Of a stretch of DNA of 64,000 nucleotides, positions 471 through 60,917 are shown one piece after another. This DNA is from Gammaproteobacteria bacterium (lineage in GTDB: Bacteria; Pseudomonadota; Gammaproteobacteria; Eutrophobiales; Eutrophobiaceae): the NCBI GenBank assembly GCA_965221695.1, contig OZ244905.1, positions 2,701,384-2,765,383 on the forward strand. Direction: 5' to 3'. How positions within the stretch are numbered: position 1 is the first letter of the stretch; the number at the start of each line of letters is the position of its first letter. The notes beneath the pieces were generated by a model, which did no database searches, was not told the origin of the DNA, and was given only the letters and a program-made list of their open reading frames with translations. Both the position numbers and the translations under genes were made by a program.

Positions 471-495
471 TGGCGGTGTTCACGGACATGCCCCC

Positions 496-650
496 TATCC
501 CATTCCCGTGAAAACGGGAATCCAGTGAGACAAAGAGTCGCCTTTCGGGCGACACTGTATTGACTGGACTCCTGCTCTTGGGGGAGTGATACGAGGGAAT
601 GCCTTGGCCTTAGGCAACAGTTACGTGCAATCGGGGCGTTCGGATCACTG
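496..650. repeat. Second REP-A copy plus a ~50 bp shared extension
   Basis: The core is cccattcccgtgaaaacgggaat...gtcgcctttcgggcgac...ggactcctgctcttgggggagtgatacg. It is followed by ggaatgccttgg..caacagttacgtgcaatcgggg, which also follows the 17.9 kb copy. Confidence 0.8.
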
Positions 651-664
651 AAAAATGGTTTATA

Positions 665-2924: not shown

Positions 2925-3113
2925 AAGGAACCTCTGGATTAAGTCAGAGTTTCCCTAAGGAAACTCTGAACAAGTCCATCCTGGACTTGTCAGAGTACGG
3001 AAAGCAAAAATGCGATTTTTGTTTTCCTCACAAAATCAATGTCTTACAGTCATTGATATTGACGATACATCCTTGTATCGTAGGAACCTCTGACTTAATC
3101 AGAGGTTCCCTAA
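2925..3113 (+). repeat. MITE-B element, full copy (five-hairpin structured repeat)
   Basis: Terminal hairpins aggaacctctg(g)attaagtcagag and aggaacctctgacttaatcagaggttcc are present. Internal hairpins are ctctgaacaagtccatcctggacttgtcagag, ggaaagcaaaaatgcgatttttgttttcc, atcaatg..cattgat and acgatacatccttgtatcgt. The copy is near-identical to those at 22.5 kb (inverted) and 60.7 kb. Confidence 0.9.
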
Positions 3114-3817: not shown

Positions 3818-3977
3818 AGAAGCTCTGAACAAGTCCATCCTGGACTTGCCAGAGCACGCACAACAAAAATGCGATTTTGTTGTGCTCACATATTCAATAA
3901 CTTGCAGTCATTGAATATGGCGATACATCCTTGAATCGCAAGAAGCTCTGAACAAGTCCATCCTGGACTTGACAGAG
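3817..3977 (+). repeat. MITE-B element, variant copy
   Basis: The copy starts at the cobO stop codon. It has the same internal hairpins with sequence variants. Both ends carry aagaagctctgaacaagtccatcctggacttg(c/a)cagag as a direct repeat. Confidence 0.85.
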
Positions 3978-3982
3978 ATTAC

Positions 3983-5653
3983 TTAACCGGAACCTGCGAG
4001 CATTTCCCGCGCATGATCACGGGACTGTTGCGATATCCTGATGCCGCCCAGCATGCGGGCGATTTCTTCCACCCGTTGTTCATCCGTCAGCACATCGACC
4101 CGGGTTTCAGTGGTTATACTGTCGGAGGTTTTCGTTACCCTGAAGTGGTTATCGCCCTGCGAGGCTACCTGCGGCAAATGGGTAACGCACAGTACCTGCC
4201 GGCGTTCCGCTAAGCTGTGTAACCGGTTGCCGACGATTTCCGCGATCCCGCCGGCAATTCCCGCGTCCACTTCGTCGAAAATCAACGTCGACGCGCCGCT
4301 GTCCCGGTTTGCGCTGACCTGCAGCGCAAGGCCGATGCGCGACAGTTCACCGCCGGAGGCGACTTTTCTCAGCGGTAACAACGCTTGCCCGGGATTGGTG
4401 GAAACGAGGAATTCCACCTGGTTGTTCCCGTTTCTGTGGGGTTTCAGGTCCGCACCCGGGGTGACATTGATTTGAAATCTCCCTTCAGGCATACCCAGGG
4501 TACGTATTCTGTCGCTGATGTCCGTAGCCATGTCTGCCGCGCACCGGCGCCGGCATTCACCCAGTTCATCTGCGGCCGATCGGTATTCCTCCAGCGCCCG
4601 TTGTTGTTCCTGTTCGAGTTCCGCCTGGCGCGTGCGATTGTGCTCCAGCGTACCCAGTTGCTGCGTTATCAATTGCTGGTGCGCGTAAAGCTGTTGCGGC
4701 TGTACCCGGTGTTTGCGGGCCAAATCGTGCAACTTCCCCATGCGTTGTTCCACCTCACCCAGGCGCGCAGGGTCCTGGTCCAGCTTGCCCAGGTAAGAGC
4801 GCAGTTCGTCGCTGGCCTCGGCAATGTGCAGAGACGCATTCTCCAGCAGTCCGGTTATGGTTGCCAGGGTTGAATCGAAGCGTTCCAGGTCAGCGAGATC
4901 CTTTTTGATGTGGTTGATCCTGTCGTTTGCCGACTTTTCGCCGGTATATAATCCGTCCAGGGCCTGTTGTGCCGTTTCCAGCAAGCTGTGCATGTTGACC
5001 AGACGCTTGTAATCATGTTCCAGCCGTTCCACTTCGTTCTCTTCCACTTCAAGCGCCTGCAGTTCCTCCACCTGGTACCTGAGCAGGGATAATCGTTCAC
5101 CTGCATCTCCGTCAGGTTCGGTGAGTGCACGCAAGGCCCTGTCTATTTCGTCCCAGTGTTCGTATGCCCGACTGACCCGCGCCAGGACCTCGTCATAGTC
5201 CCCGAAGCCGTCCAGCAATTCCCTTTGCGCATCTCTTTTCAACAACTTCTGGTGTTCGTGTTGCCCATGGATATCTATCAGCAGCGCGCCGATGTCGCGC
5301 AGTAACTGCAAGGGGACGGGAGTGGTATCGATATAAGCGCGCGAAGGGCCTTCCCTGTTAACCGCCCGGCGCAACAGCAATTCGTTTTCTGCGCAGGTGA
5401 TGGACTGTTCGTCCAGTAATTGCATCAGCGACTCATTTCCACCCACATCGAACAGCGCGCTGATCTCGGCGCGTGCGCACCCGGTTCGTATCACTGTGGT
5501 ATCCGCCCGGTCGCCCAGCACCAGCCCCAGGGCATCGATCAAAATGGATTTGCCGGCGCCGGTCTCGCCGGTAAGCACCGTCAGGCCCTCACAGAACGAC
5601 AGCTCGAGATTTTCAATTACCGCCAGATTGTTAATACAAAGATGTTTCAGCAT
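3983..5653 (-). CDS. recN: DNA repair protein RecN
   Basis: N-terminal Walker A (LTGETGAGKSIL), long coiled-coil middle, C-terminal SMC signature (SGGELSRI) and Walker B (LIFDEVD). Confidence 0.95.
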   Translation of the reverse strand: MLKHLCINNLAVIENLELSFCEGLTVLTGETGAGKSILIDALGLVLGDRADTTVIRTGCARAEISALFDVGGNESLMQLLDEQSITCAENELLLRRAVNREGPSRAYIDTTPVPLQLLRDIGALLIDIHGQHEHQKLLKRDAQRELLDGFGDYDEVLARVSRAYEHWDEIDRALRALTEPDGDAGERLSLLRYQVEELQALEVEENEVERLEHDYKRLVNMHSLLETAQQALDGLYTGEKSANDRINHIKKDLADLERFDSTLATITGLLENASLHIAEASDELRSYLGKLDQDPARLGEVEQRMGKLHDLARKHRVQPQQLYAHQQLITQQLGTLEHNRTRQAELEQEQQRALEEYRSAADELGECRRRCAADMATDISDRIRTLGMPEGRFQINVTPGADLKPHRNGNNQVEFLVSTNPGQALLPLRKVASGGELSRIGLALQVSANRDSGASTLIFDEVDAGIAGGIAEIVGNRLHSLAERRQVLCVTHLPQVASQGDNHFRVTKTSDSITTETRVDVLTDEQRVEEIARMLGGIRISQQSRDHAREMLAGSG

Positions 5654-11693: not shown

Positions 11694-11724
11694 CCCGCAT
11701 GCTCAAAGCACTGCATGCCCGGGC

Positions 11725-11975
11725 AACAGCAGGAGTCCAGTCATATTACAGTGTAGTCCGGAGAGCTTACCCATATAGAACGTGGGGCAATCCTTTGTTT
11801 CACCGGTTGAAATAGTTGCCACAGACCAGGGCATTCTCCCGTACCACTCCCGCGAAAGCGGGAGTCCAGTAAAATACTATGTCGCCTGAAAGGCGACCCT
11901 TTGTTCCACCGGCCGGAAAAGCTGTATTCCCACCCAAGCGGGAATCCAGTAAAATAACCGTCTCAAAGAGACACC
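11725..11975 (-). repeat. Cluster of two to three REP-A copies (inverted orientation, partly degenerate)
   Basis: gtaccactcccgcgaaagcgggagtccagt...gtcgcctgaaaggcgac...attcccacccaagcgggaatccagt, plus degenerate flanking copies. Confidence 0.75.
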
Positions 11976-16281: not shown

Positions 16282-16626
16282 TCAACGGTTGATATCATGC
16301 CTGGCTTCAAACTCAGCTGTGAACTCATCAAGTGGCCGGCCTTGTTCAGACAGGGCATGTCTGATAATCCGCACGCTCTCGGCATAGTTTGCCAATACCG
16401 CTATTTTTTCGTAGGTTTCAGAATCCTGGACTACCACAGCAGCGTTGCCATTGACCGTTAGAAGCTCTGGACGTTTGCTTTTGTTCGGTCGTGTAATATG
16501 CGTCGCCGGTTTCCGGCTGAAGTCAGTGACCGATTGTTGTTCAAACGTGAGCGGAGATTTCGTGTAGGCTTCTGCCACTGGAGATCCTCGGTACGCAGGC
16601 AAAAAAAAGCCGCCAAGGTTGCGCAT
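16282..16626 (-). CDS. Phd/YefM-family antitoxin, orphan
   Basis: The central block is PELLTVNGNAAVVVQDSETYEKI. No toxin ORF lies downstream on the minus strand, because the DUF5615 gene abuts it. The exact start is uncertain. Confidence 0.55.
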   Translation of the reverse strand: MRNLGGFFLPAYRGSPVAEAYTKSPLTFEQQSVTDFSRKPATHITRPNKSKRPELLTVNGNAAVVVQDSETYEKIAVLANYAESVRIIRHALSEQGRPLDEFTAEFEARHDINR

Positions 16627-17142
16627 TGTTAAGAGGCGTGACGGCTATGTTACTCATATTATAGTTCCTGCTGGAAACAGATTCAAGAGAGAGATAGTGT
16701 TTTCCATATTAGCGGGAGATTCTGTTAGCAACAAATTGATTTGTCCGCTTTTGTAACAAATCAATTCCTCTTTTATCTTTACACTGACACCGTCAAGATG
16801 TTAGCGGGAGCTTCTTGTAAATCCCTGATATGGTTGTTAAAGTATTTTGCATGGAAAAATTGATCGAAAGAATAAAACTAGGTCTTGAGAAAGGGCATTA
16901 TTCACGCGAAGAACAAGTATGGGGTAGTGGCGCCGAAGTGGAATTTGAAATACCTACACGCACTTAGAGTTCAACAGCCAGTTGACACAGTCGGCTAACC
17001 TGACAAAAAAGCAAACCAACCGTTATCGGTTGAAAAACTAATCTCTGGTTTAGACAGTTGTGAAACCACAATGGAGGGATCGTTGTCCGAGACCGAATGA
17101 ATCATAACGTGGAATACAAGCCGTTTGACAGCGCGTAAAGAA

Positions 17143-17781: not shown

Positions 17782-17828
17782 GATTTTGCTGATATATGCT
17801 GTGTAAATTTTACTAACTGTCCTGCACC

Positions 17829-17980
17829 CCGAACATTCCGGTACGTACAGGAATTCAGTGAAACAAAGGGTCGCCCTCCGGGCGACACAGAATTTGACTG
17901 GACTCCCGCTTTCGCGGGAGTGGTACGGGGGAATACCTTGTTCTGTGCCAACAGTTACATGTAATCGGGGTGTGCAGAGA
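17829..17980 (+). repeat. REP-A copy plus shared extension
   Basis: ...cagtgaaacaaagggtcgccctccgggcgacacagaatttgactggactcccgctttcgcgggagtggtacggggg, followed by gaataccttg..caacagttacatgtaatcgggg. Confidence 0.85.
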
Positions 17981-18124
17981 GCTGATCATAAGGGTTTAGA
18001 GTTTGCAAACAACGTCTCGGATGAGATGACGTAATCAGGTCATGCCTGCTGGCGGTTTCTCCACATAACCGGCAGGGTTGCGACGGCGGGCCAGTAGTTT
18101 GTCAATTTCCCAGCGGGCGGCTGG

Positions 18125-21100
18125 TTAGACATCGGTGAGGCAGGTAGTCACTCCATTCAATTGTTTTGCGACCGGCAAGCCGTTTTTGAACAATATCCTG
18201 TTGGTATGCAAGGCCGGGATGCGGTCGCCGGGCAATATCACGCCTACCAGGTTCAGCGGATCGGTGGCGGAGATGACGACTGGAGGCAGCTCCTGCGTGG
18301 CGTTTTTCTGTTTCCTCAACAAGGCAATCGCCTCCGGTCGGGCAAATTGTTCGCCGGAGCAGCCTTCGACAAAATAACCGCCACGGATCTCGCCTCGCGC
18401 CTCCATGCGCCGGCACATATACAGCAGCTCTCTCCACGGCGGTAAGTCGGGTTCGCGTTCCAGTACCTTGCGGAACAGCACACCATAACGCTTCAGCAGG
18501 GTATCGACAACCGCGCTCAGCGTGTTTTCGTCCGTGCCCGGCCAGGCGCGCTGTTCCGGGGTTTCGGGGTCTTCCGTTGAACTGACAATGGCCGACCAGC
18601 GCCCTGCGGCATCGACGCTGTTCATGCTCGACGCTCGCCGGCGTCGCCTCCCATGGCCGTAGCCGGGGCGCTTGCTCTCCGGTGTGATCAGTGCCCGGAG
18701 CCCTGCGTAGCTGTCTGAGGTGACGGCGCCGCCAGCGGCCAGTTCAGCCAGCGCCGTTTCCACCTGGGTGCGCAGTAAACCGGTCTGTTGCGCCAGGTCC
18801 ATGAAAAATGATGCGCCCTGGCGCCGCAGGGTGTCCAGGGTTTTTGCTGCTGCGGACGATAACTTCCTGCCCTGGATCGCATCCGGCAGCAGAAGTTTCT
18901 GCCACAGGTCAAGGCGTTCACGGTCCAGCAGGGTGATGGGCGTGTTCCTCAGCAATACCGCTTTGCCCGCAGACATTTCATCCGCTGCAGCCCTGTGCCT
19001 GGCAGAACGCAGGCGCGACCAGACGATGCGGCCACTACTGCACAAGCGGTCCAGGGCCGCGCTGGAGTAGTCGTTCAGGCGGGCAGGCAGGATATCCTTT
19101 TCCCACGCAGCCGCGGCAATGGCGTAACCCTCCAGTTTTTCCAGCGCCGCCAGCAGCGCGGCGTCACCCTCGGGTCGTATTTCACCCATACCGTGCCACG
19201 CAAACAGGAAACGCATATAGCCGGCGGCTGTTACCGGTTTGATTTCCTGCCGTAACGATTGAATGGTATAGCGGTGCATCCTGGCGAGCAGGCCGCGCTC
19301 GCACCACTCTGTCTCCACGGCGTCAGGGCTGTACCGGCCCTGCATCGCATAGCCCTCGTTCTGCAATGCCAGCAGGGACGCGTTAACCTCGGTGGCGCTT
19401 GCGTCAAACAGTTCAGCCAACTCGGCTTCGGTCACGGGTCCGCAGCATTCGAGCCGGGCGCGCACAAGTTCGATCAGCGCGGACTCTCTGGCAGGTCTTC
19501 CTGTACCAAGGGCTGCCTCTGGCGGCATCTCGGATAACTGGATTTTTGCTTCCGCCGTGATGGCGGCAGAGGAGCGCCGGGATGGTGGGGAGGCAGCAGT
19601 ATCGATAGAAGAAGCAGGCGCTGGGGGCAAGCCGGCAGCCGCAGTGGTTGGCCCGCCGGCATATACTGCCTGAGCCTGGGGAAGCCGTTCGGCGCAAACC
19701 CATAGGGTCTGTTTGCCGGCGCGCAGCACGGTTGCGCGTTTCTCCTCCATAAGCCGAGGCAACCAGGGGCGACCGTCTGCCAGCGCCGGGTTATCGCCGC
19801 TGCCTTCGCGTGCACTCATCACGCCGGTAAGCATCAGCGCATCATGCAGTTCATCTGCGTCACGGAATGCCGGCCAGGCTTCACTGCGTACCTGGGCGAT
19901 GGCTTCCGGACTCAAGCGGGCAAGGTTTGCGGCGTCGGCCGGGTCCAGGAAGCGCCTGGCAATGACCGCGTTGGTGCGGCGTTCTTCCGCCGGCGCATCA
20001 TCCAGGAATGCATACGGCCGGGCGTTCAGGATTTCCTGTGCCAGCGGAGAGGGCCCGCCCAGGTCGCGGCAATGGAAGCGGATCCGGCCGTTCTCGTATG
20101 CCCGAAGAATTTCTTCCAGTCCGGCAATGTCCATCAGGTCGTTCAGGCAGTCGTTGACGGTCTGTTCTACCAGCGGATGCCGTGGTATTTCCCTTTCTCC
20201 GATGAGATTGTCCTGGCAGGCCAGTTGGTCGGGGAAGACCACCGCCATCAGGTCCTCGGCATCGCTGCGCTGGAACTGTGCGGGCACTTTCTGCCCGCCG
20301 CTGTTGCGCCTGACGGCCAGGGCCGTGGTGGCATTCCAGCGCCAGTGTGTGGGGAACATCGGCGTCGCCAGCAGCGCCTGGGTGACCGCGTCCCTGACGC
20401 TCGCGGAATTAAGGTAGCGGGTCACATCCTCCAGGGGAAAGCTGTGGATCGCGCCCAGGGATATGACAATGCTGTCGTCCAGGGCTGCGGCCTGCAACTC
20501 AAAATTGAACTGCCGGCAGAAGCGCTTGCGCAGGCCCAGGCCCCAGGCGCGGTTGATGCGGGAGCCGTAAGGGCTGTGCAGCACCAGGTGCTGGTCTCCT
20601 GCCTCGTCAAAAAAGCGCTCGAACACGACATCCTGCCGGGTCGGGACGCGTCCCAGGGCGGCGCGCGCGCCGGCCAGGTGATCGGTCAACTGGCGTGCAG
20701 CCGCCTCGTTCAGATTTAATTCGCCAACCAGCCAGTGATATGCGGTATCCCCGCCCTGCGCCAGTTTTTCATCCATGACGCTGCGCAGGCGTGAGACCGC
20801 ACGACTCAGTTCATCGGACCGGCCCGGCGCCTCGCCGAACCAGAACGGAATGTTCGGAGGCTGGCCTTGTGCGTCCGCAACCCGCACTTTGCTCTGTTCG
20901 ACCTTGAGGATGCGATACGAGGTATTGCCCAGTTGGAAGATGTCGCCAGGCAGGCTCTCGAATGCAAAATCTTCGTTCAATGTCCCGATAAAATGGCCCT
21001 CCGGTTCCAACACCACATCGTAATCGAACTGGTCCGGTATCACCCCGCCGTTGGTAACGGCAGTCAGCCTCGCGCTCTTCCTGGGCCGGATGCGCTTGTT

Positions 21101-22516
21101 GACGCTGTCATGGTGGATGTACCGGCTGCGCCGGCCGCGGCGCGTGGAAAACCCCTGCGCCAGCATGCCCAATACCTCCGTGAATTTCTGCCGCGTCAGT
21201 TCCCGGTACGGGTAAGCGTGCGTCACTTGCCGGAACAATTCATCTTCCTGCAACTCCGCGCAGGCAGCCTCCGCGACCAGGTGCTGCGCGAGCACATCCA
21301 GGTGGCCCTCAGGTATGGCGAGCCGGTCCAGCTCGTCACGCCGCGCCGCGTCCAGCAACGCCGCGCATTCCACCAGGTCATCCCGGCTCAGCGGGAACAG
21401 TCGTCCCTTTGGAGTCGCACCCAGGTGGTGGCCGGAACGTCCAACCCGTTGCAGGAACACGGCAATGGATCGGGGCGAGCCAAGCTGGCACACCAGGTCC
21501 ACATCTCCGATGTCGATGCCCAGTTCCAGCGATGCAGTCGCGACCAGCGCCTTGAGTTCTCCCCGTTTCAGCCGTTGTTCCGCATTCAGGCGATGTTCTT
21601 TTGCCAGGCTGCCGTGATGGGCGGTCACATTTTCTTCACCTACCCGTTCCGCCAGCGCGCGCGCGGCCCGTTCGGCCAGGCGGCGGGTATTGACGAAGAT
21701 CAGCGTGGTCCTGTGCTGCCCAATCAGGTCAGCCAGCCGAGCGTACAATTCCAGCCATACCTCGCCGGCCATCACGGCTTCCAAGGGTGAGTCGGTAAGC
21801 GCCAGCGCGATGTCCATACGCCTGGCATGGCCGCGATCCAGGATGTTGCACTGTTGCTCCCGGTTACCGATCAGGAACCGGGCAATCTCTTCTATCGGCC
21901 GTTGAGTCGCAGACAGGCCGATACGCGCGAACGGGCGTCCGGTGAGCGCCTCCAGCCGTTCCAGTGAAAGCGCCAGGTGCGCCCCCCGTTTGTTTGGCGC
22001 CAGGGCATGAATCTCGTCAATGATCACGTTGCGCACGGTTTGCAGCATATTTCTACCGGAACTGCTGGTGAGCAGGATATAAAGGGATTCCGGGGTGGTG
22101 ACCAGGATATGGGGTGGCGTGCGCCGCATACGCTCGCGCGCTGCCTGCGTGGTATCACCGGTTCGCACCAGGGCGCGGATGTCCGCCGTCGCCAAGCCCT
22201 GTGCCTGCATCCTGTCGCGGATGCCTTGCAGCGGTCCCTGCAGGTTCTTCTGTATATCGTTGGACAAGGCCTTCAGAGGAGAGACATACAGGATATACGT
22301 CTCATCAGCAAGCCGGCCGGCCACAGCTTCCCGCACCAGGTCGTCAATGGCCGCGAGGAACGCGGCCAAGGTCTTGCCGCTACCGGTCGGGGCGGCAATC
22401 AGGGCATGTTTGCCCTGTTTTATCGCAGGCCAGGCGTCCTCCTGTACCGGCGTCGGTCCGGCAAATTCACTGTTAAACCAGGACGCGGTCACCGGGTGAA
22501 AAATATCGGTTGACAT
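18125..22516 (-). CDS. lhr: Lhr-family large ATP-dependent DEAD/DEAH helicase (1463 aa)
   Basis: N-terminus PTPVQEDAWPAIKQGKHALIAAPTGSGKTLAAFL, DEIH box, HHGSL motif, and the long Lhr-type C-terminal extension. Confidence 0.9.
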   Translation of the reverse strand: MSTDIFHPVTASWFNSEFAGPTPVQEDAWPAIKQGKHALIAAPTGSGKTLAAFLAAIDDLVREAVAGRLADETYILYVSPLKALSNDIQKNLQGPLQGIRDRMQAQGLATADIRALVRTGDTTQAARERMRRTPPHILVTTPESLYILLTSSSGRNMLQTVRNVIIDEIHALAPNKRGAHLALSLERLEALTGRPFARIGLSATQRPIEEIARFLIGNREQQCNILDRGHARRMDIALALTDSPLEAVMAGEVWLELYARLADLIGQHRTTLIFVNTRRLAERAARALAERVGEENVTAHHGSLAKEHRLNAEQRLKRGELKALVATASLELGIDIGDVDLVCQLGSPRSIAVFLQRVGRSGHHLGATPKGRLFPLSRDDLVECAALLDAARRDELDRLAIPEGHLDVLAQHLVAEAACAELQEDELFRQVTHAYPYRELTRQKFTEVLGMLAQGFSTRRGRRSRYIHHDSVNKRIRPRKSARLTAVTNGGVIPDQFDYDVVLEPEGHFIGTLNEDFAFESLPGDIFQLGNTSYRILKVEQSKVRVADAQGQPPNIPFWFGEAPGRSDELSRAVSRLRSVMDEKLAQGGDTAYHWLVGELNLNEAAARQLTDHLAGARAALGRVPTRQDVVFERFFDEAGDQHLVLHSPYGSRINRAWGLGLRKRFCRQFNFELQAAALDDSIVISLGAIHSFPLEDVTRYLNSASVRDAVTQALLATPMFPTHWRWNATTALAVRRNSGGQKVPAQFQRSDAEDLMAVVFPDQLACQDNLIGEREIPRHPLVEQTVNDCLNDLMDIAGLEEILRAYENGRIRFHCRDLGGPSPLAQEILNARPYAFLDDAPAEERRTNAVIARRFLDPADAANLARLSPEAIAQVRSEAWPAFRDADELHDALMLTGVMSAREGSGDNPALADGRPWLPRLMEEKRATVLRAGKQTLWVCAERLPQAQAVYAGGPTTAAAGLPPAPASSIDTAASPPSRRSSAAITAEAKIQLSEMPPEAALGTGRPARESALIELVRARLECCGPVTEAELAELFDASATEVNASLLALQNEGYAMQGRYSPDAVETEWCERGLLARMHRYTIQSLRQEIKPVTAAGYMRFLFAWHGMGEIRPEGDAALLAALEKLEGYAIAAAAWEKDILPARLNDYSSAALDRLCSSGRIVWSRLRSARHRAAADEMSAGKAVLLRNTPITLLDRERLDLWQKLLLPDAIQGRKLSSAAAKTLDTLRRQGASFFMDLAQQTGLLRTQVETALAELAAGGAVTSDSYAGLRALITPESKRPGYGHGRRRRRASSMNSVDAAGRWSAIVSSTEDPETPEQRAWPGTDENTLSAVVDTLLKRYGVLFRKVLEREPDLPPWRELLYMCRRMEARGEIRGGYFVEGCSGEQFARPEAIALLRKQKNATQELPPVVISATDPLNLVGVILPGDRIPALHTNRILFKNGLPVAKQLNGVTTCLTDV

Positions 22517-22538: not shown

Positions 22539-22698
22539 TTAAGGAACCTCTGATTAAGTCAGAGGTTCCTACGATACAAGGATGTATCGTCAATATCAAT
22601 GACTGTAAGGCATTGATATTGTGAGGAAAACAAAAATCGCATTTTTGTTTTCCGTACTCTGACAAGTCCTGGATGGACTTGTTCAGAGTTTTCTTAAG
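22539..22698 (-). repeat. MITE-B element, full copy, inverted orientation
   Basis: Reverse complement of the 60745-60900 copy with few differences. Confidence 0.9.
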
Positions 22699-22845: not shown

Positions 22846-23244
22846 ATGAGCGAAGAGCTGCTGACACATAAAGGCGGCTGCCATTGCGGCGCGGTGAAGT
22901 TCGAGGTGGATGCCCCCGCTGCGATCACCGTGATGGACTGTAACTGCTCCATCTGCCGGATGAGCGGCTACTTGCACCTGCAGGTCCCGAGGTCGCGCTT
23001 CCGGCTGCTGCGAGGCAAGGATGCGCTGTCGACCTACACTTTCAATACCGGTGTCGCGCAACACTATTTCTGCGGCGCTTGCGGCGTCAAGTCATTCTAC
23101 GTGCCGCGCTCATTCCCCGAGGGCTACAGCGTCAACCTCAACTGCCTCGACCGGTCACAGGTAATAAACGTTACGGTGGAAAAGTTTGACGGTGACAACT
23201 GGGAAGCGGCATATAACAGAAAAAAACACACGCCGGTTGATTAA
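22846..23244 (+). CDS. GFA / CENP-V family (glutathione-dependent formaldehyde-activating-like) protein
   Basis: GGCHCGAV...CNCSIC...FCGACG cysteine pattern. Confidence 0.8.
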   Translation: MSEELLTHKGGCHCGAVKFEVDAPAAITVMDCNCSICRMSGYLHLQVPRSRFRLLRGKDALSTYTFNTGVAQHYFCGACGVKSFYVPRSFPEGYSVNLNCLDRSQVINVTVEKFDGDNWEAAYNRKKHTPVD

Positions 23245-23275
23245 GAGAACCTCTGAGATTAAGTCAGAGGTTCCT
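23243..23275. repeat. Solo MITE-B terminal hairpin
   Basis: aagagaacctctgagattaagtcagaggttcct lies between two convergent genes and overlaps both stop codons. Confidence 0.75.
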
Positions 23276-23866
23276 GAGCTTCTCCAGGTCGGCGGGCACA
23301 TCAAGGTCAAATTCGGCTTCGGCAAGAGGGAGTGTGCTGACCCGGTCGGCGTTGTTTTTCAGCATTAATTTTGCCCCAGTATCGCCTTTCAGCGCCAGCA
23401 ATTGCGGGTAAAACTCTGCGGGAATGATGGCCGGTGTGCCGATGACGCCGGCGTAGCGGGCGGCTGCTATATCGGACGGGCTGGCAAGCCAAAGGTTGAG
23501 CAGGCTGTTCAGGTGCTGCTGAGTAACCAGCGCCTGGTCGCACAAGGTAATCATCACGGCCGGACAGTCCGGCTCAAGACTGCGCACTCCTGCTTGAACA
23601 GAGGATGCCAGCCCCTGGCGCCAATCCTTGTTGAGCGCTATGTTGACTCCCAGGTCGTCGACAGCTTGTGCGACGGCCTCCGAGTTGGCGCCGACGACCA
23701 CATTGATCCGGCCGGGCGCGAACAGCGCCAGGAGCTTGTTCACGGCAAGCCGCACCAGGCTGGAACCCTTTATTTCAACCAGTTGTTTACACTGGCCGTA
23801 CCTGCTTGAACCTCCCGCCGCCAGAACTACCGCGGCCGCATTTTGCTCCAGGTTTGACGTCTTCAC
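23264..23866 (-). CDS. MobA/MocA-like nucleotidyltransferase (molybdenum cofactor cytidylyltransferase family)
   Basis: N-terminus AVVLAAGGSSRYGQCKQL matches the LAAGxSxRxGxxK signature. Length 200 aa. Confidence 0.7.
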   Translation of the reverse strand: MKTSNLEQNAAAVVLAAGGSSRYGQCKQLVEIKGSSLVRLAVNKLLALFAPGRINVVVGANSEAVAQAVDDLGVNIALNKDWRQGLASSVQAGVRSLEPDCPAVMITLCDQALVTQQHLNSLLNLWLASPSDIAAARYAGVIGTPAIIPAEFYPQLLALKGDTGAKLMLKNNADRVSTLPLAEAEFDLDVPADLEKLRNL

Positions 23867-24039: not shown

Positions 24040-24161
24040 TAGCACAGGCCAAGGTATTGCCCCGTACCACTCCCGCAACAGCGGGAGTCCAGTCAAATAA
24101 GTGTCGCCCGCAGGGCGACTCATCTGTTTACTGGATTCCCGTTTTCACGGGAATGGTACGG
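24040..24161 (-). repeat. REP-A copy (inverted) with part of the extension
   Basis: ccaaggtattgccccgtaccactcccgcaacagcgggagtccagt...gtcgcccgcagggcgac...attcccgttttcacgggaatggtacgg. Confidence 0.85.
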
Positions 24162-29251: not shown

Positions 29252-29866
29252 ATGTCTAAAAGTTCCAAACGCTGGCTGCAGGAACATAACCGGGATAGGT
29301 ACGTTAACCTGGCCCGGAGCCGGCGACTGCGTTCTCGCGCGGTGTTCAAACTTGAGGAGTTGGACCGGCGTCACAGACTGTTCCGCCCGGGACAGACGGT
29401 GCTTGACCTGGGCGCGGCGCCGGGTAGCTGGTCAGCCTACGTGGCTGAAAAGGTTAGGCCCGACGGCAAAGTCATCGCGGTCGACTTGCTGGCGATGCGG
29501 CCTATTGCCGATGTGATCTTCCTGCAAGCTGACCTGAGCAATGCAGCCAACCTGCAGAATTGTATCGCCCGGCTGAGCGAATACCGCGTTGACCTTGTAA
29601 TTTCTGATATGGCCCCCAATTTATCAGGCATAGCTGCCGCGGATCAGGCCAACAGTCTGAAACTGGCGGAAACCGCTCTCCGAATAGCCTGTTCGGCGCT
29701 GCGCGGTAACGGGCATTTTCTGGTCAAGCTGTTTCAAGGAGCTGACAGCGACGCATTCAGAAAGCAATTGACGGAGAAATTTGCTAAAGTATCAGTGAGC
29801 AAGCCGAAGGCGTCGAGGACGAACTCCAGTGAGGTATACATCCTGGCAAAAGGTTATGAGGTTTAA
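29252..29866 (+). CDS. rlmE: 23S rRNA (uridine2552-2'-O)-methyltransferase RlmE/FtsJ
   Basis: SKRWLQEH..., the DLGAAPGSWS SAM motif, and the conserved position before ftsH. Confidence 0.95.
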   Translation: MSKSSKRWLQEHNRDRYVNLARSRRLRSRAVFKLEELDRRHRLFRPGQTVLDLGAAPGSWSAYVAEKVRPDGKVIAVDLLAMRPIADVIFLQADLSNAANLQNCIARLSEYRVDLVISDMAPNLSGIAAADQANSLKLAETALRIACSALRGNGHFLVKLFQGADSDAFRKQLTEKFAKVSVSKPKASRTNSSEVYILAKGYEV

Positions 29867-29902
29867 GAAAGCTTTGAACAAGTCCATCGTTGATCTGTCA
29901 GG
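29866..29902 (+). repeat. MITE-B fragment (degenerate first hairpin)
   Basis: aagaaagctttgaacaagtccatcgttgatctgtcagg lies directly after the rlmE stop. Confidence 0.55.
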
Positions 29903-29984
29903 TGATGCAAACAATGTAAGTGATAGGATGTATGCTGGCAGGCGCTCGTCCGTTTGTTGAGATAAAGCTCAGGCATAAGGCGTT

Positions 29985-36260: not shown

Positions 36261-36347
36261 GGAGAGGTGCCAGAGTGGTTGAATGGGGCAGACTCGAAAT
36301 CTGTTGTACGCGTCAGCGTACCGTGGGTTCGAATCCCACCCTCTCCG
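36261..36347 (+). tRNA. tRNA-Ser (anticodon CGA)
   Basis: ggagaggtgccagagtggttgaatggg...gactCGAaatc..., a long variable arm (gtacgcgtcagcgtac), T arm gtgggttcgaatcccac, and an acceptor pairing GGAGAGG/CCTCTCC with discriminator G. No CCA is encoded. Confidence 0.9.
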
Positions 36348-36701
36348 TAACATTCATGCCACAGGCGCATCTGGCGCCTGTGGCATGAATGTTGATGCAA
36401 TGGGGTTCGAACCCACGGTAATTAAATACGGGTTCGACAAATTCGCTGGGAGCGAATTTGAACAGCGTAGCTGGCCCCGGAGGGGCAAACTACATGGATG
36501 TAGTTTGTAATCCCACCCTCTCCGTAACATTCATGGCACAGGCGCTTCTGTCGCCTGTGCCATGAATGTTGATGCAATGGGGTTCGAACCCACGGTAATT
36601 AAATACGGGTTCGACAAATTCGCTGGGAGCGAATTTGAACAGCGTAGCTGGCCCCGGAGGGGCAAACTACATGGATGTAGTTTGTAATCCCACCCTCTCC
36701 G
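36332..36701 (+). repeat. Two tandem 177-bp units, each bounded by the 16-nt tRNA-Ser 3' end (three copies: 36332, 36509, 36686)
   Basis: aatcccaccctctccg occurs three times with an exact 177-bp period. Each unit starts with a 20-bp-stem hairpin (36349-36393; 36526-36570). Confidence 0.9.
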
Positions 36702-36705
36702 CCAT

Positions 36706-37896
36706 CTAATAGTCCGGTAAAGTCCGGAGTCTTCCAAGCGCTTCAATGAAATGTGCTAGTGACAGGATGGTTGTGTCCTGGCTGCCGGGGAATGTATCTT
36801 CGCCAGTGTAAACAACAAATTTCTGTTTTACCTTTAAGTCTTCACAGGCCATGTGAAAGCCTTTTTTCAAGGTTGGAGTTCGGCTTGCTTTGATCTCAAC
36901 GGCCCAGTATTCATCAAGACCAAACTCAATTACCAAATCAATTTCTGCCCCAGCAGATGTGCGATAGAAAAACGGATGAGCGCTTGAAGGTAAGGCGTTA
37001 ATAATGGTCTCAATGACAAACCCCTCCCAGCTTTTTCCGAATATAGGATGCCCCAACAAAGCTTCATAATTCGGAATTTGCAGCAAGGCATGCACAAGAC
37101 CGCTATCGCGTACATAGGTACGTGGTGATTTCACCAGCCGTTTTTTGACGTTCCCATGCCAAGGCTCTAGCCTGCGAACCAATAACAAATCAACCATGAG
37201 GTCCAGATATCGACTAACGGTGACACTCTCTACGCCAAGAGAGCTTGCGAGTTTTGACGCGTTCAGTAGTTCACCTTGTGTATGGGCAAGCATGGTCCAA
37301 AAGCGCATCAAGGTCGTTGCTGGAATTCTTGGTCCTAGCTGAGGGATGTCTCGTTCCAGATAGGTGCGAATAAAATTCTGCCGCCACTGGTGACTGGCCG
37401 CATCATCTTCAGCGGCATAGCTGTCGGGAAACCCACCACGTATCCAGAGCTTTTGTAAGGGCTCTCCGGATGTTTCTTCAATTTCAAAAAGGTTTAAGCC
37501 AGTCAGTTCAGAGTAATGAATGCGGCCAGCAAGGCTCTCAGAGCTTTGTTTTAGCAACTCATTGGTTGCCGATCCTAAAACAAGAAAGCGTCCGTTTCCG
37601 CGCCCCTCACGACGTCTGGCATCAATGATTCCGCGCAGTGACATAAACAAATCAGGGTAGCGTTGGACCTCATCGAGAATGACCAGCTTATCTGCATGTA
37701 GTTCTAGATAGTGGGCAGGGTCTTTGAGCTTTTGGAAATCCTCTGGGTTCTCGAGATCCAAATAAACAGATGGTTGCCCTTTGGCGATCTCATGGGCAAG
37801 CGTTGTCTTGCCAATCTGGCGCGGGCCAAGAATGGCAACAGCCGGATTTTGACTGAGACTTTTGATGATTTTCTGTGTAAGCTCTCTTTCATACAT
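36706..37896 (-). CDS. AAA-family ATPase with C-terminal DUF4143-type domain
   Basis: MYERELTQKI...VAILGPRQIGKTTLAHEIA (Walker A), VILDEVQ (Walker B), about 396 aa. The track ORF extends to 37971. Confidence 0.75.
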   Translation of the reverse strand: MYERELTQKIIKSLSQNPAVAILGPRQIGKTTLAHEIAKGQPSVYLDLENPEDFQKLKDPAHYLELHADKLVILDEVQRYPDLFMSLRGIIDARRREGRGNGRFLVLGSATNELLKQSSESLAGRIHYSELTGLNLFEIEETSGEPLQKLWIRGGFPDSYAAEDDAASHQWRQNFIRTYLERDIPQLGPRIPATTLMRFWTMLAHTQGELLNASKLASSLGVESVTVSRYLDLMVDLLLVRRLEPWHGNVKKRLVKSPRTYVRDSGLVHALLQIPNYEALLGHPIFGKSWEGFVIETIINALPSSAHPFFYRTSAGAEIDLVIEFGLDEYWAVEIKASRTPTLKKGFHMACEDLKVKQKFVVYTGEDTFPGSQDTTILSLAHFIEALGRLRTLPDY

Positions 37897-38276
37897 GCTA
37901 GCAATACTAACACAAAATATTAAATATGCAAGGTAAATGTTTTTGTGGTGATCTGTTTCCAATGAAGGCAAAGCGGGATTAGAACCCGCGATACGGTACC
38001 GTGTTCACAACAAAAACCGGCGCTTGGCGAGGAAGGTGTACAGGCGGGTGGTGAACAAGTCGCCGGTACGGCGAACTTTGCGAGGCACAAACCTCTTATC
38101 ACCCAATGTAATTCGGTTTGTATAGTCCGCAACATCCGTAATTGGTTTTGAAAATCCTGTGTCTATGGACAACCCCCCCATACTTGATTAGCATAAGTCA
38201 TAAGGAGGACCTATCGTGAACGTTGATTTCGTGACAAAGCGCCAGTCTGACAATCTCATGCAAATGCCGACCATCC

Positions 38277-50563: not shown

Positions 50564-50601
50564 CTCTGACAAGTCCAGGATGGACGTGTTCAGAGTTTCC
50601 C
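50564..50601 (-). repeat. MITE-B fragment (first hairpin only)
   Basis: ctctgacaagtccaggatggacgtgttcagagtttccc. Confidence 0.6.
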
Positions 50602-58126: not shown

Positions 58127-58163
58127 GCAACCCCTGTCCTGATCGCCGGTCGTGATCCCAAAC

Positions 58164-58196
58164 AAGGGGACCTCTGATTAAGTCTCAGAGTTTCCC
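58164..58196. repeat. MITE-B terminal-hairpin fragment
   Basis: aaggggacctctgattaagtctcagagtttccc. Confidence 0.6.
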
Positions 58197-58277
58197 AAGA
58201 TATCTATTCAGGGACCCTGTTCAACAATTTGTGTTACTCTGCGGTGAAATAAAAGCGAATAACATCGGGAGAACCCT

Positions 58278-59433: not shown

Positions 59434-60747
59434 GTGGCGTCAAGACAAGGCTCAGTCCGCAGTCCGGTGAATAGTCTGAATCCCTCCCTGCGGGAATACT
59501 GGCCCCGGCGTTACACGCTGACCGGCCTGGCGGTTATCGCGATGTTCATCTGCTACATGGACCGGGTGAACATTTCCATTGCCATCATACCGATGGCTGA
59601 CGACATGGGTTGGCAGCCGGAACAACAGGGCATGGTATTGTCGTCTTTTTTTCTCGGTTACCTGTTAACCCAGGTCCTCGGTGGCCGCCTGGCGGATCGC
59701 CATGGCGGCAAGCTTGTGCTGGGAGTTGCGGTACTGGTCTGGTCGTTGTTCACGTTTGTCACACCCGTAGCTGCAATGGCCGGTTTCGGCGCACTGCTCC
59801 TGGCGCGTATCGGTATGGGCGCAGGCGAAGGCGTGGCGTTGCCGGCCGTTTACAGTCTCTACGGTCGCTGGTTGCCGCGTCATGAGTTTTCCCGCGCCAT
59901 TGGCGCTACCTTTTCTGCGATGACCCTGGGGATTGTTTTCGGCATGGCAGCCACGCCCTGGATCATCGTCAATTTCGGTTGGCACTGGGCATTTTATTCA
60001 TTCGGTCTCGCCGGTTTTGCCTGGTTCATCTTCTGGCACAAAAGCGCTGCGTCGCATCCTGACCTGCATTCGGGTATCAGCGAGCAAGAGCGCGCGCTGA
60101 TACGCAGGGATGCGGCGCCGGTCACGGCAACACAGGCGCCGCCCTGGGGCCAGTTGTTAACCACACCGGCCGTCTGGGCTATCATCGTGGCCCATTTCTG
60201 TTCCAACTGGGGTGTGTACGTGCTGCTGGCGTGGATGCCCACCTATATCAACAAGGGGTTGCAGGTTGATTTCAATGCGGTGGGCTTGTATGCAATGATC
60301 CCCTACATCGCCGCCTTCCTGTTCTTTAACATAGCCGGCGCGCTCGCAGACAGACTGGCCATGCGTGGTTGGGAGACAATAAAAATCCGCAAGTTGATGC
60401 AAGTCATCGGTTTTGGCGGACCGGCGCTGATCCTGATGTTCGTCGGTAATGTCGATAATGCAGAAGCCGCGATTGCATTGATGACACTGGCCAATATTTT
60501 TATAGCCTTCAATGCGGGCGCTTTCATCGTCAACCACCTGGACATAGCCCCGAAATACGCCGGCGTTTTGATGGGCCTGTCGAACACGGCAGGCACAATA
60601 CCGGGTATCATAGGCGTTTATGTCAGCGGAATGATACTGGGGCTGACTGGTTCGTGGACGCTGGTGTTTCAGCTCGCAGCGCTGGTATACCTGCTGGGGC
60701 TGGTATTCTACCTGGCGTTCGCATCGGGCAAACGCCTGTTTGATTAG
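59434..60747 (+). CDS. MFS transporter (anion:cation symporter-like)
   Basis: About 12 predicted TM helices and GGRLADRHGGK (MFS loop 2-3 motif). The GTG start is uncertain. Confidence 0.8.
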   Translation: MASRQGSVRSPVNSLNPSLREYWPRRYTLTGLAVIAMFICYMDRVNISIAIIPMADDMGWQPEQQGMVLSSFFLGYLLTQVLGGRLADRHGGKLVLGVAVLVWSLFTFVTPVAAMAGFGALLLARIGMGAGEGVALPAVYSLYGRWLPRHEFSRAIGATFSAMTLGIVFGMAATPWIIVNFGWHWAFYSFGLAGFAWFIFWHKSAASHPDLHSGISEQERALIRRDAAPVTATQAPPWGQLLTTPAVWAIIVAHFCSNWGVYVLLAWMPTYINKGLQVDFNAVGLYAMIPYIAAFLFFNIAGALADRLAMRGWETIKIRKLMQVIGFGGPALILMFVGNVDNAEAAIALMTLANIFIAFNAGAFIVNHLDIAPKYAGVLMGLSNTAGTIPGIIGVYVSGMILGLTGSWTLVFQLAALVYLLGLVFYLAFASGKRLFD

Positions 60748-60900
60748 GGAAACTCTGAACAAGTCCATCCTGGACTTGTCAGAGTACGGAAAACAAAAAT
60801 GCGATTTTTGTTTTCCTCACAATATCAATGCCTTACAGACATTGATATTGACGATACATCCTTGTATCGTAGGAACCTCTGACTTAATCAGAGGTTCCTT
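60745..60900 (+). repeat. MITE-B element, full copy
   Basis: The copy starts at the MFS stop codon. All five hairpins are intact. Confidence 0.9.
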
Positions 60901-60917
60901 AGTTTTGGAGACAACTT

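What the first reader, a model, noticed from the sequence alone, without database searches (positions are those of the whole stretch)
60745..60900. MITE-B: a 160-190 nt element made of five consecutive hairpins, at least eight full or partial copies, almost always starting at a stop codon
Full copies lie at 2925-3113, 3817-3977 (variant), 22539-22698 (inverted) and 60745-60900. Fragments lie at 23243-23275, 29866-29902, 50564-50601 and 58164-58196.

The unit is a string of five hairpins: ctctgaacaagtcca-tcc-tggacttgtcagag, ggaaaacaaaaa-tgcga-tttttgttttcc, atcaatgcc-ttacaga-cattgat, acgataca-tcc-ttgtatcgt, and aggaacctctga-cttaa-tcagaggttcct.

The copies sit immediately 3' of genes (btuB, cobO, rlmE, GFA, MFS and others). 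They may act as transcript-stabilising or terminating structures, or as non-autonomous mobile elements. Internal variants such as the 3817 copy change both arms of hairpins, which suggests selection for structure. The element also creates spurious conserved peptides (..LNKSILDLSEYGKQKCDFCFPHNINAL..) in the ORF track.
Basis: seen in the sequence. Interest (0 to 1): 0.6.

Follow-up and report, generated by a model that had tools for sequence, protein, structure and literature searches.

The report
IS5-type miniature transposon with five hairpins
The repeated 151-base, five-hairpin element is a small non-coding "hitch-hiker" transposon (MITE) whose ends match insertion sequence IS5; it inserts at T/C-T-A-A/G sites, which is why it often sits on stop codons, so it is an ordinary kind of mobile DNA with an unusually well-preserved hairpin architecture.

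Summary
The window holds four full copies and five short or decayed ones. The element folds into five consecutive hairpins (RNA z = -12.5, DNA z = -15.5).

It is a non-autonomous transposon (MITE) of the IS5 group. Its terminal inverted repeats match the ends of E. coli IS5 at 15-17 of 19 bases. They match 90% over 39 bases, including hairpin 1, with the left end of an annotated IS5-family IS on Achromobacter plasmid pA81. Copies are flanked by a 4-bp direct repeat, identical in 37 of 68 copies against 7.5 expected, with consensus YTAR, the IS5 target. YTAR contains TAA/TAG, which explains the overlap with stop codons.

No transposase lies in the window or in 74 related loci. Orthologous cobO loci lack the element. 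Copies occur in at least 28 assemblies, both unclassified Gammaproteobacteria and Xanthomonadales.

Hairpins 2-5 differ in sequence between subfamilies but keep pairing: 95% of cells pair and 37 of 57 pairs show double changes. There is no G-U excess, no significant orientation bias and no sparing of stems by copy-specific mutations. Selection therefore seems to act on the element, not on a host RNA function.

There is no Rfam or Pfam match. Verdict: a new member of a known kind, of modest interest.

The parts
60744..60747 (+). Left target-site duplication TTAG. It contains the TAG stop codon (60745-60747) of the MFS transporter gene 59434-60747.
60748..60898 (+). Full 151-nt MITE copy, the copy named in the finding. 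The left inverted repeat GGAAACTCTGAACAAGTCC starts at 60748. The right inverted repeat ends ...TCAGAGGTTCC at 60898.
   Evidence: (174 bits)
60753..60784 (+). Hairpin 1: the inner part of the left inverted repeat plus its inverted copy, with loop TCC. The core GAACAAGTCCATCCWGGACTTG is identical in all retrieved copies, but that is by construction of the search.
60788..60816 (+). Hairpin 2 (GGAAAACAAAAA-TGCGA-TTTTTGTTTTCC), rich in A-tracts. High-GC genomes carry an unrelated GC-rich sequence that still pairs.
   Evidence: 11 of 12 pairs with double changes
60821..60849 (+). Hairpin 3, central. Its left arm carries TATCAATGCCTTA, which matches the IHF consensus WATCAANNNNTTR.
60851..60870 (+). 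Hairpin 4 (ACGATACA-TCCT-TGTATCGT). The loop motif CATCC is conserved and shared with the loop of hairpin 1.
60872..60898 (+). Hairpin 5: a partial direct copy of the left inverted repeat (GGAACCTCTGA) paired with the right terminal inverted repeat (TCAGAGGTTCC).
   Evidence: (D8)
60899..60902 (+). Right target-site duplication TTAG. The next gene (Lactamase_B, ATG at 60918) starts 16 nt later.
2927..2954 (+). 28-nt mini-element (hairpin 5 module only), flanked by CTAA at 2923-2926 and 2955-2958.
2959..3109 (+). Full copy between the TonB-dependent receptor gene and cobO. Its TSD is CTAA at 2955-2958 and 3110-3113; the left CTAA is shared with the mini-element.
   Evidence: (170 bits)
3818..3982 (+). 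Variant copy with a second hairpin-1 module as its right end. TSD TTAA lies at 3814-3817 (contains the cobO stop) and 3983-3986 (contains the stop of the convergent gene 3983-5653). The element is absent from the orthologous loci L079 and L080.
   Evidence: (121 bits)
22543..22693 (-). Full copy in inverted orientation. TSD TTAA lies at 22539-22542 and 22694-22697. It sits between the start of the Lhr-type helicase gene (18125-22516, - strand) and the GFA gene.
   Evidence: (170 bits)
23246..23274 (+). Solo hairpin-5 element with flanks TAAG and TGAG. The TAA stop of the GFA gene (23242-23244) lies in the left flank. The convergent NTP_transf_3 gene (23264-23866, - strand) ends on the TGA inside the element.
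58167..58195 (+). Solo hairpin-5 element flanked by CAAG on both sides (58163-58166 and 58196-58199).
50564..50600 (-). Solo hairpin-1 element with a degraded outer left end.
   Evidence: (D14)
29867..29940 (+). Decayed copy. The related genomes L043 and L024 carry intact full copies in the same intergenic space.

Best explanation

Shown:
- It is 151 bp long and non-coding, and has imperfect terminal inverted repeats, GGAA(A/G/C)(C/G)TCTGAACAAGTCC on the left and the inverse of GGAACCTCTGA on the right.
- It is flanked by a 4-bp direct duplication of the target, with consensus (T/C)TA(A/G).
- Hairpin 1 is not a MITE invention. The same inverted repeat plus adjacent inverted copy forms the left end of a full-length IS5-family IS.

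Inferred:
- The element is moved in trans by an IS5-group DDE transposase encoded elsewhere in the genome. That enzyme recognises the ends and cuts the target with a 4-bp stagger.
- Because the target contains TAA or TAG and is duplicated, insertion exactly on a stop codon rebuilds the stop and is harmless. Copies therefore accumulate at gene ends and in short intergenic spacers.
- The short forms (hairpin 1 alone at 42 nt, hairpin 5 alone at 28 nt, H1+H5, H1+H4+H5) are deletion derivatives. They arise between the internal direct repeats of the end sequence, which occurs four times in the element.
- The three inner hairpins are kept by selection on the element's own propagation, or by DNA-level palindrome correction, rather than by a host RNA function.
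- The central hairpin 3 probably carries an IHF site, as E. coli IS5 does in its bent 3' region. IHF would bend the 151-bp DNA so that the two ends can meet.
- When a copy is co-transcribed with its neighbours the RNA will fold into hairpins. That is a side effect.
For: Terminal repeats:
- The E. coli K-12 IS5A ends read GGAAGGTGCGAATAAG and GGAAGGTGCGAACAAGTCCCT.
- The high-GC form of this element starts GGAAGGTCTGAACAAGTCC (17 of 19 match). The window form starts GGAAACTCTGAACAAGTCC (15 of 19 match).
- Bases 2-40 of the element match, at 89.7%, the sequence 40 nt upstream of an annotated 'IS5 family transposase' on plasmid pA81. That IS starts TTAA|GGAACCTCTGAACAAGTCCTCTGGACCTGTCAGA and ends ...CTTGTTCAGACCTTCC.
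- Its transposase gave tblastn hits only below E = 1e-3 in the window and the 74 related loci, as did E. coli InsH; the one relaxed hit was E = 0.82.

Target duplication:
- 37 of 68 delimited copies have identical 4-mers on both sides. The permutation mean is 7.5 and the maximum in 10,000 permutations is 18. 57 of 68 differ by at most one base.
- Non-consensus flanks are also duplicated: TGAA, TAAA, ATAA, CTAT, TTAT, CAAG.
- The consensus is T/C, T, A, A/G.
- The literature gives IS5 as 1195 bp with 16-bp inverted repeats, a 4-bp duplication C(A/T)A(G/A), and an IHF site in the centre of the bent 177-bp 3' region (PMC11677980, PMC11894529).

Mobility:
- The cobO orthologues at 87% amino-acid identity (L079, L080) lack both flanking copies, and the sequence aligns on both sides of the downstream one.
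- Modular deletion forms keep the flanking repeats.

Structure:
- The five hairpins are the minimum-free-energy fold.
- On 57 distinct full copies, 95.0% of cells pair, against 82.1% for shuffles and 33-45% for slid partners. 37 of 57 pairs and 329 cells have changes on both sides. 0 of 500 shuffles reach any of the five measures.
- An independent MAFFT plus RNAalifold run gives 18 of 32 pairs with double changes.
- The window copy is only 54-63% identical to the high-GC copies, yet keeps all five hairpins.

Against a host RNA role, and so for element-level selection.

IHF lead:
- The strict consensus is present in 25 of 57 copies, always at relative position 0.53-0.57, against 0.26 copies expected from shuffles. 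It occurs in both GC classes.
- An H3-like AATCAATCACTTA lies in inverted orientation in a different IS5-type MITE on a Xanthomonas perforans plasmid.
Against: - No transposase partner was found in the same genome.
- No clean, base-exact empty site was obtained. The cobO comparison is across 87% amino-acid identity and has an 11-nt difference at the junction.
- Near-identical strains all carry the same copies, so recent movement is not shown.
- The right inverted repeat of the low-GC form shares only about 11 nt with the left one.
- Conservation of three internal hairpins is not expected for a typical MITE and is not explained by transposase recognition of the ends.
- The largest subfamily has TTCAA instead of ATCAA in the putative IHF site.
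- The invariance of hairpin 1 was imposed by the search pattern.
- Alignment A3 was fitted to the structure, and the copies are related, so the counts are not independent events.
Confidence: 0.85

Rival explanations
1. The element is mainly a host-selected structured RNA. Candidates are a 3'-UTR stabiliser against exonucleases, a transcription terminator or an sRNA, and its spread would be secondary.
For: - The predicted RNA folds are very stable and there is strong covariation.
- Several window copies lie directly after stop codons.
- The copy at 60748 lies inside a probable operon, 16 nt before the next start codon, so it is probably transcribed.
- The review PMC10969869 notes such roles for other MITEs.
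Against: - No hairpin is followed by a T-run that belongs to the element. The one terminator-like hit uses locus-specific flank.
- There are 27 G-U pairs against 74 A-C mismatches, so wobble is not tolerated preferentially.
- Copy-specific variants hit stems at 0.43 per column and unpaired columns at 0.58 (p = 0.30), and 25 of 41 break pairs.
- Orientation in tandem gene contexts is 22 sense against 12 antisense, and 14 of 55 copies lie between divergent starts.
- The old copy at 29867 has decayed.
- There is no Rfam match at any useful score.
Confidence: 0.08
2. The hairpins are REP/BIME-type palindromic units mobilised as single-stranded DNA by a REP-associated tyrosine transposase (RAYT), or by an IS200/IS605-type enzyme.
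For: - Individual hairpins occur alone.
- The composite is a mosaic of palindromes with a central IHF-like site, like E. coli BIME-1/RIB elements (from established knowledge).
- The conserved loop motif CATCC in hairpins 1 and 4 could be a hairpin-recognition feature.
Against: - The copies have 4-bp target duplications, which HUH/Y1 single-strand transposition does not make.
- The ends are IS5-type inverted repeats, shared with an IS that encodes a DDE transposase.
- There is no RAYT homologue in the window or the 74 loci (tblastn with E. coli RayT, best E = 0.36).
- There is no conserved GTAG-type 5' tetranucleotide.
Confidence: 0.03
3. The element is an IS5-type MITE, but its inner hairpins have no function for host or element. 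On this view they persist because imperfect palindromes are corrected to perfect ones by intra-strand template switching or hairpin repair, and because all copies descend from a few palindromic masters.
For: - Pairing is almost purely Watson-Crick (3041 of 3228 cells).
- Double changes distinguish subfamilies rather than single copies.
- About 13 of 41 'private' stem variants are compensated within one copy, which fits arm-to-arm correction.
Against: - The same order of five hairpins survives at 54-63% sequence identity and across a 20-point GC shift. This is hard to explain without any constraint.
- The ATCAA...TT motif in the left arm of hairpin 3 stays conserved where its partner does not pair: pair 136-165 is unpaired in 13 sequences.
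- The other IS5-type MITEs found here (Klebsiella plasmids, X. perforans) do not show five regular hairpins.
Confidence: 0.25

Closest known systems
IS5 of E. coli and IS5-group insertion sequences (for example the IS on Achromobacter xylosoxidans plasmid pA81, transposase WP_011255161.1)
   Same: - The terminal inverted repeat sequence matches: 15-17 of 19 bases to IS5, and 90% over 39 nt to the pA81 IS, including the adjacent inverted copy that forms hairpin 1.
- The target duplication is 4 bp with consensus YTAR.
- A putative IHF site lies some 60-95 bp from the right end.
   Different: - The element has no transposase gene and is 151 bp instead of about 1.2 kb.
- The interior is three extra palindromes that have no counterpart in either IS.
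- The right end is folded back on a partial direct copy of the left end.
Correia elements (NEMIS) of Neisseria
   Same: - Both are about 150-bp MITEs with deletion variants, in high copy number, and sit in intergenic or co-transcribed positions.
- Both have a central IHF site.
- Both form a hairpin when transcribed (review PMC10969869; the rest from established knowledge).
   Different: - Correia elements have 26-bp inverted repeats unrelated in sequence, and a TA duplication.
- They form one long hairpin from the two ends rather than five local ones.
- Their parent transposase is unknown.
E. coli BIME-1 / RIB-RIP elements (REP-IHF-REP mosaics)
   Same: Both are a mosaic of palindromes with an IHF consensus in the middle, and are often found at the 3' ends of transcription units.
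   Different: REP elements have no target duplication and no IS5-type ends, and are linked to RAYT. None of those features was found here.
Published IS5-related MITEs include BrickBuilt of Porphyromonas (PMC4596501).
   Same: - The ends are of the GGAAGCTCTGAA... type and the flanks are CTAA/TTAG.
- The size is 100-155 bp.
- The Xanthomonas element shares an H3-like AATCAATCACTTA module.
   Different: - The interiors are different and lack the regular five-hairpin layout.
- In the Xanthomonas element the H3-like module is inverted.

Membership tests
MITE (bacterial miniature inverted-repeat transposable element) | Short (under about 300 bp), with no coding capacity | tested here: met
   The element is 151 nt. 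The six-frame translation gives only short stop-interrupted peptides with no Pfam family.
MITE (bacterial miniature inverted-repeat transposable element) | Terminal inverted repeats | tested here: met
   GGAAnCTCTGA... pairs with ...TCAGAGnTTCC. The repeat is 11 nt in the low-GC form and 17 nt (GGAAGGTCTGAACAAGT) in the high-GC form.
MITE (bacterial miniature inverted-repeat transposable element) | Target-site duplication flanking each copy | tested here: met
   37 of 68 copies have identical 4-mers, against 7.5 +/- 2.3 by permutation. 57 of 68 differ by at most one base.
MITE (bacterial miniature inverted-repeat transposable element) | Many dispersed copies per genome | tested here: met
   There are 9 copies or remnants in 64 kb of the window.
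MITE (bacterial miniature inverted-repeat transposable element) | Presence/absence polymorphism at orthologous sites | tested here: inconclusive
   The element is absent next to cobO in L079 and L080 (87% amino-acid identity) and the flanks align. The junction is not base-exact, and near-identical strains all carry the copies.
IS5 family, IS5 group (as parent of the MITE) | Inverted repeats of the GGAAGGTGCGAA... type | tested here: met
   15-17 of 19 bases match the E. coli IS5A end read from NC_000913. The match to the end of an annotated IS5-family IS on pA81 is 89.7% over 39 nt.
IS5 family, IS5 group (as parent of the MITE) | 4-bp duplication of a C(A/T)A(G/A)-like target | tested here: met
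   By position, the duplicated flanks are T29/C7, T31, A34, A24/G11. The IS5 target is taken from PMC11677980.
IS5 family, IS5 group (as parent of the MITE) | A cognate DDE transposase in the same genome that can act in trans | not testable with these tools
   None was found in the window or in the 74 loci of 8 kb.
REP / BIME elements mobilised by RAYT | No target duplication, a conserved 5' tetranucleotide (GTAG type) and an associated RAYT gene | tested here: not met
   A 4-bp duplication is present. There is no GTAG-type motif at the hairpin feet. No RayT homologue was found.
Curated RNA family (Rfam 15) | Score at or above a family's gathering threshold | tested here: not met
   There is no hit on any copy at gathering thresholds. 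The best permissive hits score 12-24 bits against thresholds of 42-114.
Intrinsic (Rho-independent) terminator | A GC-rich stem followed directly by a T-run that is part of the element | tested here: not met
   The only terminator-like call at the 60748 copy uses the flank TAGTTTTGG, which lies outside the element. Other copies have different flanks.
IHF-binding site (consensus WATCAANNNNTTR) | A consensus match at a fixed position; binding by IHF | tested here: inconclusive
   A strict match is present in 25 of 57 copies at relative position about 0.54, against 0.26 expected. The largest subfamily has one mismatch (TTCAA). Binding cannot be tested here.

The most novel reading that the evidence does not exclude
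The inner hairpins may be functional parts of the transposition substrate. On this reading an IS5-group transposase, with IHF bound at hairpin 3, would need the extruded or single-stranded hairpins to bring the two ends of a 151-bp element together, and perhaps an internal binding site marked by the CATCC loop motif shared by hairpins 1 and 4. This would be a structure-dependent mode of MITE mobilisation. It would explain why the five-hairpin layout survives at 54-63% sequence identity in genomes of 44-73% GC.
Probability: 0.2. Interest if true: 0.55.

Novelty: new member of a known kind. Interest (0 to 1): 0.3.

Why it matters
- For annotation: the family generates spurious conserved ORFs (for example ..LNKSILDLSEYGKQKCDFCFPHNINAL..). 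It supplies or overlaps stop codons of real genes (23264-23266, 3983-3985). It is frequent enough, at about one copy per 7 kb here, to break short-read assemblies.
- For biology: it is a clean example of how a TAA/TAG-containing target site steers a transposon onto stop codons without harm.
- It links a widespread gammaproteobacterial repeat to the well-studied IS5, which has a tractable transposase and a known dependence on IHF.
- The preserved hairpin architecture gives a testable case for whether MITE interiors are selected for their own mobility. Otherwise the element is ordinary mobile DNA.

Tried and rejected
- E. coli genomes, megablast of the element: no match.
- Rfam at gathering and permissive thresholds: nothing relevant.
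- Pfam on the element's translated frames: nothing.
- Literature search for the end sequences as text strings: only unrelated primer hits. Searches for IS5-derived MITEs in Xanthomonas and relatives found no description of this element.
- Viral contigs: one match only, not pursued.
- Exact-protein look-ups for strain variants with empty sites. The MFS and GFA neighbours returned only contigs that already carry the element, and cobO is not on record.
- tblastn for an IS5-type transposase or RayT around copies: none.
- All-against-all comparison of the 74 loci for fortuitous empty sites: only shared or filled sites.
- The MAFFT alignment put hairpin 2 of the two GC classes out of register, so RNAalifold missed it. 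This was corrected with a covariance model.
- A first, longest-ORF gene call gave wrong neighbours (for example at 3818) and was replaced by a codon-model call.
- Considered and dropped: integron attC site (the copies are dispersed and have no R/L core sites) and an IS630/Tc1-type TA duplication (the duplicated unit is 4 bp, including non-TA variants).
Full report
**1. Observation**

Reading the four stated regions shows the same roughly 150-nt unit each time. A blastn of the 60745-60900 copy against the window recovers the following:
- 2959-3109 (97%)
- 22541-22691 (99%, inverted)
- 3823-3878 plus 3946-3977 (a variant)
- short matches at 2925-2954, 23247-23275, 29875-29888, 50564-50601 and 58170-58196

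A covariance model built later finds the same set and nothing more at E < 0.001.

As RNA it folds at -75.8 kcal/mol, against -29.5 +/- 3.7 for shuffles (z -12.5). As DNA it folds at -53 kcal/mol (z -15.5).

One correction is needed. '2925-3113' is a 28-nt mini-element (2927-2954) followed by a full copy (2959-3109).

**2. What the ends are**

Each copy begins GGAAnCTCTGAACAAGTCC and ends TCAGAGnTTCC, so it has terminal inverted repeats. In high-GC genomes the repeat is longer: GGAAGGTCTGAACAAGT at both ends.

I read the ends of IS5A from E. coli K-12. They are GGAAGGTGCGAATAAG and, on the transposase-proximal side, GGAAGGTGCGAACAAGTCCCT. The element matches the latter at 17 of 19 positions in its high-GC form and 15 of 19 in the window form.

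A search of plasmids with a high-GC copy hit Achromobacter xylosoxidans pA81 at 89.7% over 39 nt. The match is the left end of an IS whose gene is annotated 'IS5 family transposase'. That IS begins TTAA|GGAACCTCTGAACAAGTCCTCTGGACCTGTCAGA and ends CTTGTTCAGACCTTCC. Hairpin 1, meaning the end repeat followed by its own inverted copy, is therefore inherited from a full-length IS.

Neither this transposase nor E. coli InsH has a homologue in the window or in the 74 related loci. E. coli RayT has none either.

**3. Target duplication, and why stop codons**

The four bases outside the two ends are identical in the window copies:
- TTAG/TTAG at 60748
- CTAA/CTAA at 2959 and at the mini-element
- TTAA/TTAA at 3818 and at 22543
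- CAAG/CAAG at 58167

Over 68 delimited copies from many genomes, 37 have identical flanks. The permutation mean is 7.5 (sd 2.3, maximum 18 in 10,000 permutations). 57 differ by at most one base. Unusual flanks such as TGAA, TAAA, ATAA and CTAT are duplicated too.

The consensus is (T/C)TA(A/G). This is the 4-bp C(A/T)A(G/A) duplication described for IS5 (PMC11677980). Every canonical target contains TAA or TAG on one strand or the other, and the duplication restores it. Insertion on a stop codon therefore leaves the gene intact. Four window flanks do contain a stop codon: 60745-60747, 3815-3817, 3983-3985 on the minus strand, and 23242-23244.

This is not a rule, however. Using gene calls from a codon model of my own, I counted 69 copies. 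About 12 have a stop inside the duplication. Of 55 copies with both neighbours classified:
- 22 lie in sense orientation between tandem genes
- 12 lie in antisense orientation between tandem genes
- 14 lie between divergent starts
- 7 lie between convergent ends

These gene calls are crude.

**4. Mobility and distribution**

They come from at least 28 assemblies:
- many unclassified Gammaproteobacteria MAGs, including CBDCSC01, which is 98.6% identical to the window over 7.8 kb
- Xanthomonadales/Lysobacterales (Rehaibacterium terrae, Thermomonas, Aquimonas, Pseudoxanthomonas, a Rhodanobacteraceae MAG)

The window itself is 100% identical to an ENA metagenome contig.

Full length is 151 nt in most copies. 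Shorter forms keep the flanking repeats:
- hairpin 1 alone (42 nt)
- hairpin 5 alone (28-29 nt)
- H1+H5
- H1+H4+H5

The end sequence occurs four times in the element: the left end, the right arm of H1, the left arm of H5 and the right end. Deletions between these direct repeats would therefore yield exactly these forms. This step is inferred.

The cobO orthologues at 87% amino-acid identity (L079, L080) lack both the upstream and the downstream copy. For the downstream one the flanks align on both sides of a 165-nt gap. The junction differs by 11 nt, so this is not a base-exact empty site. Near-identical strains all share the insertions.

**5. The hairpins**

The window copy and the high-GC copies are only 54-63% identical overall. 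Hairpins 2, 3 and 4 have largely different sequences, yet all five hairpins are present in the same order.

I counted pairs on a model-based alignment of 58 full copies (57 distinct):
- 95.0% of 3228 pair cells are standard pairs, against 82.1% in shuffles and 33-45% with slid partners.
- 37 of 57 pairs and 329 cells have changes on both sides.
- No shuffle out of 500 reaches any of the five measures.

An independent MAFFT/RNAalifold run gives 18 of 32 predicted pairs with double changes.

Three caveats apply. Hairpin 1's core is invariant by construction of the search. Alignment A3 leans towards the structure it was fitted to. The copies are related, so cells are not independent events.

**6. 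RNA gene or DNA parasite?**

Four results argue against a host-selected RNA:
- Pairing is almost purely Watson-Crick: 3041 cells, with 27 G-U and 74 A-C. A selected RNA would tolerate G-U.
- Among 44 low-GC copies, variants private to one copy fall on stems at 0.43 per column and on unpaired columns at 0.58 (p = 0.30). 25 of the 41 in stems break the pair.
- Orientation is not significantly biased.
- No hairpin has a T-run of its own, and no Rfam family matches.

The covariation therefore separates subfamilies. That is what one expects if only masters with intact hairpins multiply, or if palindrome arms correct each other. Which of the two holds is open.

**7. A lead on hairpin 3**

The left arm of hairpin 3 carries TATCAATGCCTTA, which matches the IHF consensus WATCAANNNNTTR.
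- The strict consensus is present in 25 of 57 distinct copies, always at relative position 0.53-0.57 and in both GC classes. Shuffles give 0.26 copies.
- The largest subfamily has TTCAA, one mismatch.
- E. coli IS5 is reported to carry an IHF site in the centre of its bent, A-tract-rich 177-bp 3' region (PMC11894529). At that place its sequence reads GATTCAAGGCATTTAC.
- Hairpin 2 of the low-GC form is made of A-tracts.
- A different IS5-type MITE on a Xanthomonas perforans plasmid carries AATCAATCACTTA in the opposite orientation.

A central IHF bend would help the two ends of a 151-bp DNA to meet. This is inference, and binding was not tested.

**8. Comparison and verdict**

The element meets the defining features of a MITE and of derivation from an IS5-group IS. 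The exception is the cognate transposase in the same genome, which could not be looked for. It fails the features of REP/RAYT elements, intrinsic terminators and any Rfam family.

It resembles Correia elements in size, deletion variants and a central IHF-like site. It resembles BIME-1/RIB in being a palindrome mosaic. It differs from both in its ends and in its target duplication.

I found no description of this particular family in the searched literature. That library is incomplete, and ISfinder could not be consulted. The element is a new member of a known kind. The only unusual feature is the strongly preserved five-hairpin interior.

Noticed in passing
window 351-651, 11719-11956, 17827-17985, 24043-24099: A second dispersed repeat family of about 100-125 nt. 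It is built from inverted TCCCGCGAAAGCGGGA hairpins around a central GTCGCCCTGCGGGCGAC hairpin. Two tandem units lie just upstream of the cobalamin riboswitch (663-883).
   Followed up: no
window 36261-36701: An 87-nt tRNA gene is followed by two 177-nt tandem repeats (95% identical). Each ends in a copy of the tRNA 3' end (GTAGTTTGTAATCCCACCCTCTCCG) and contains a long hairpin (CATGCCACAGGCGC...GCGCCTGTGGCATG). An AAA_14/DUF4143 ATPase gene lies next door at 36706-37971 (- strand). This looks like repeated integration scars at a tRNA gene.
   Followed up: partly
window 16608-16645 (- strand): Rfam match to abiF RNA (RF03085) just above its gathering score: 40.2 bits against 37.
   Followed up: no
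window 23264-23266; also L012, L058, L062: Some genes end on the TGA inside the element's inverted repeat (CTCTGA), 11 nt into the element. The MITE therefore supplies the stop codon and the last few codons. The window example is the NTP_transf_3 gene 23264-23866 (- strand).
   Followed up: partly
L011 548-767, L065 4461-4682, L027 6167-6337 (genome OZ252091): Three copies carry a further insertion of 20-70 nt in the loop of hairpin 2 (for example CCCGTATCAAAGCCTGCCCCGTAC...GTACGGGGCAGGCTTTGATACGGG). The insert is itself a palindromic repeat, so this is a second small element nested in the first.
   Followed up: no
L159 about 2505-2606 (Klebsiella michiganensis pK516_KPC); about 758 plasmid records: An unannotated IS5-type MITE of roughly 100 bp (GGAAGCTCTGAAAAAGCCC...GGGCTTTTTCAGACCTTCC), flanked by CTAA and TTAG. 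It is present on hundreds of Klebsiella, Citrobacter, Escherichia, Aeromonas and Pseudomonas plasmids.
   Followed up: partly
L160 2505-2656 (Xanthomonas perforans plasmid CP077786): A 152-bp IS5-type MITE with a CTAA duplication. It shares the end sequence, and an inverted H3-like AATCAATCACTTA module, with the element studied here.
   Followed up: partly
L001, L007, L028: Copies that are 97-98% identical lie in MAGs labelled 'Proteobacteria' and 'Acidobacteriaceae'. A further match lies in a 'Saccharimonadia' MAG (L051). This reflects either horizontal spread or binning errors.
   Followed up: no
all full copies, hairpin 1 and hairpin 4 loops (window 60766-60772 and 60857-60864): Both loops carry the motif CATCC (CCATCCTGG and ACATCCTTGT). 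It is conserved across subfamilies while the stem of hairpin 4 varies. This remains unexplained.
   Followed up: no
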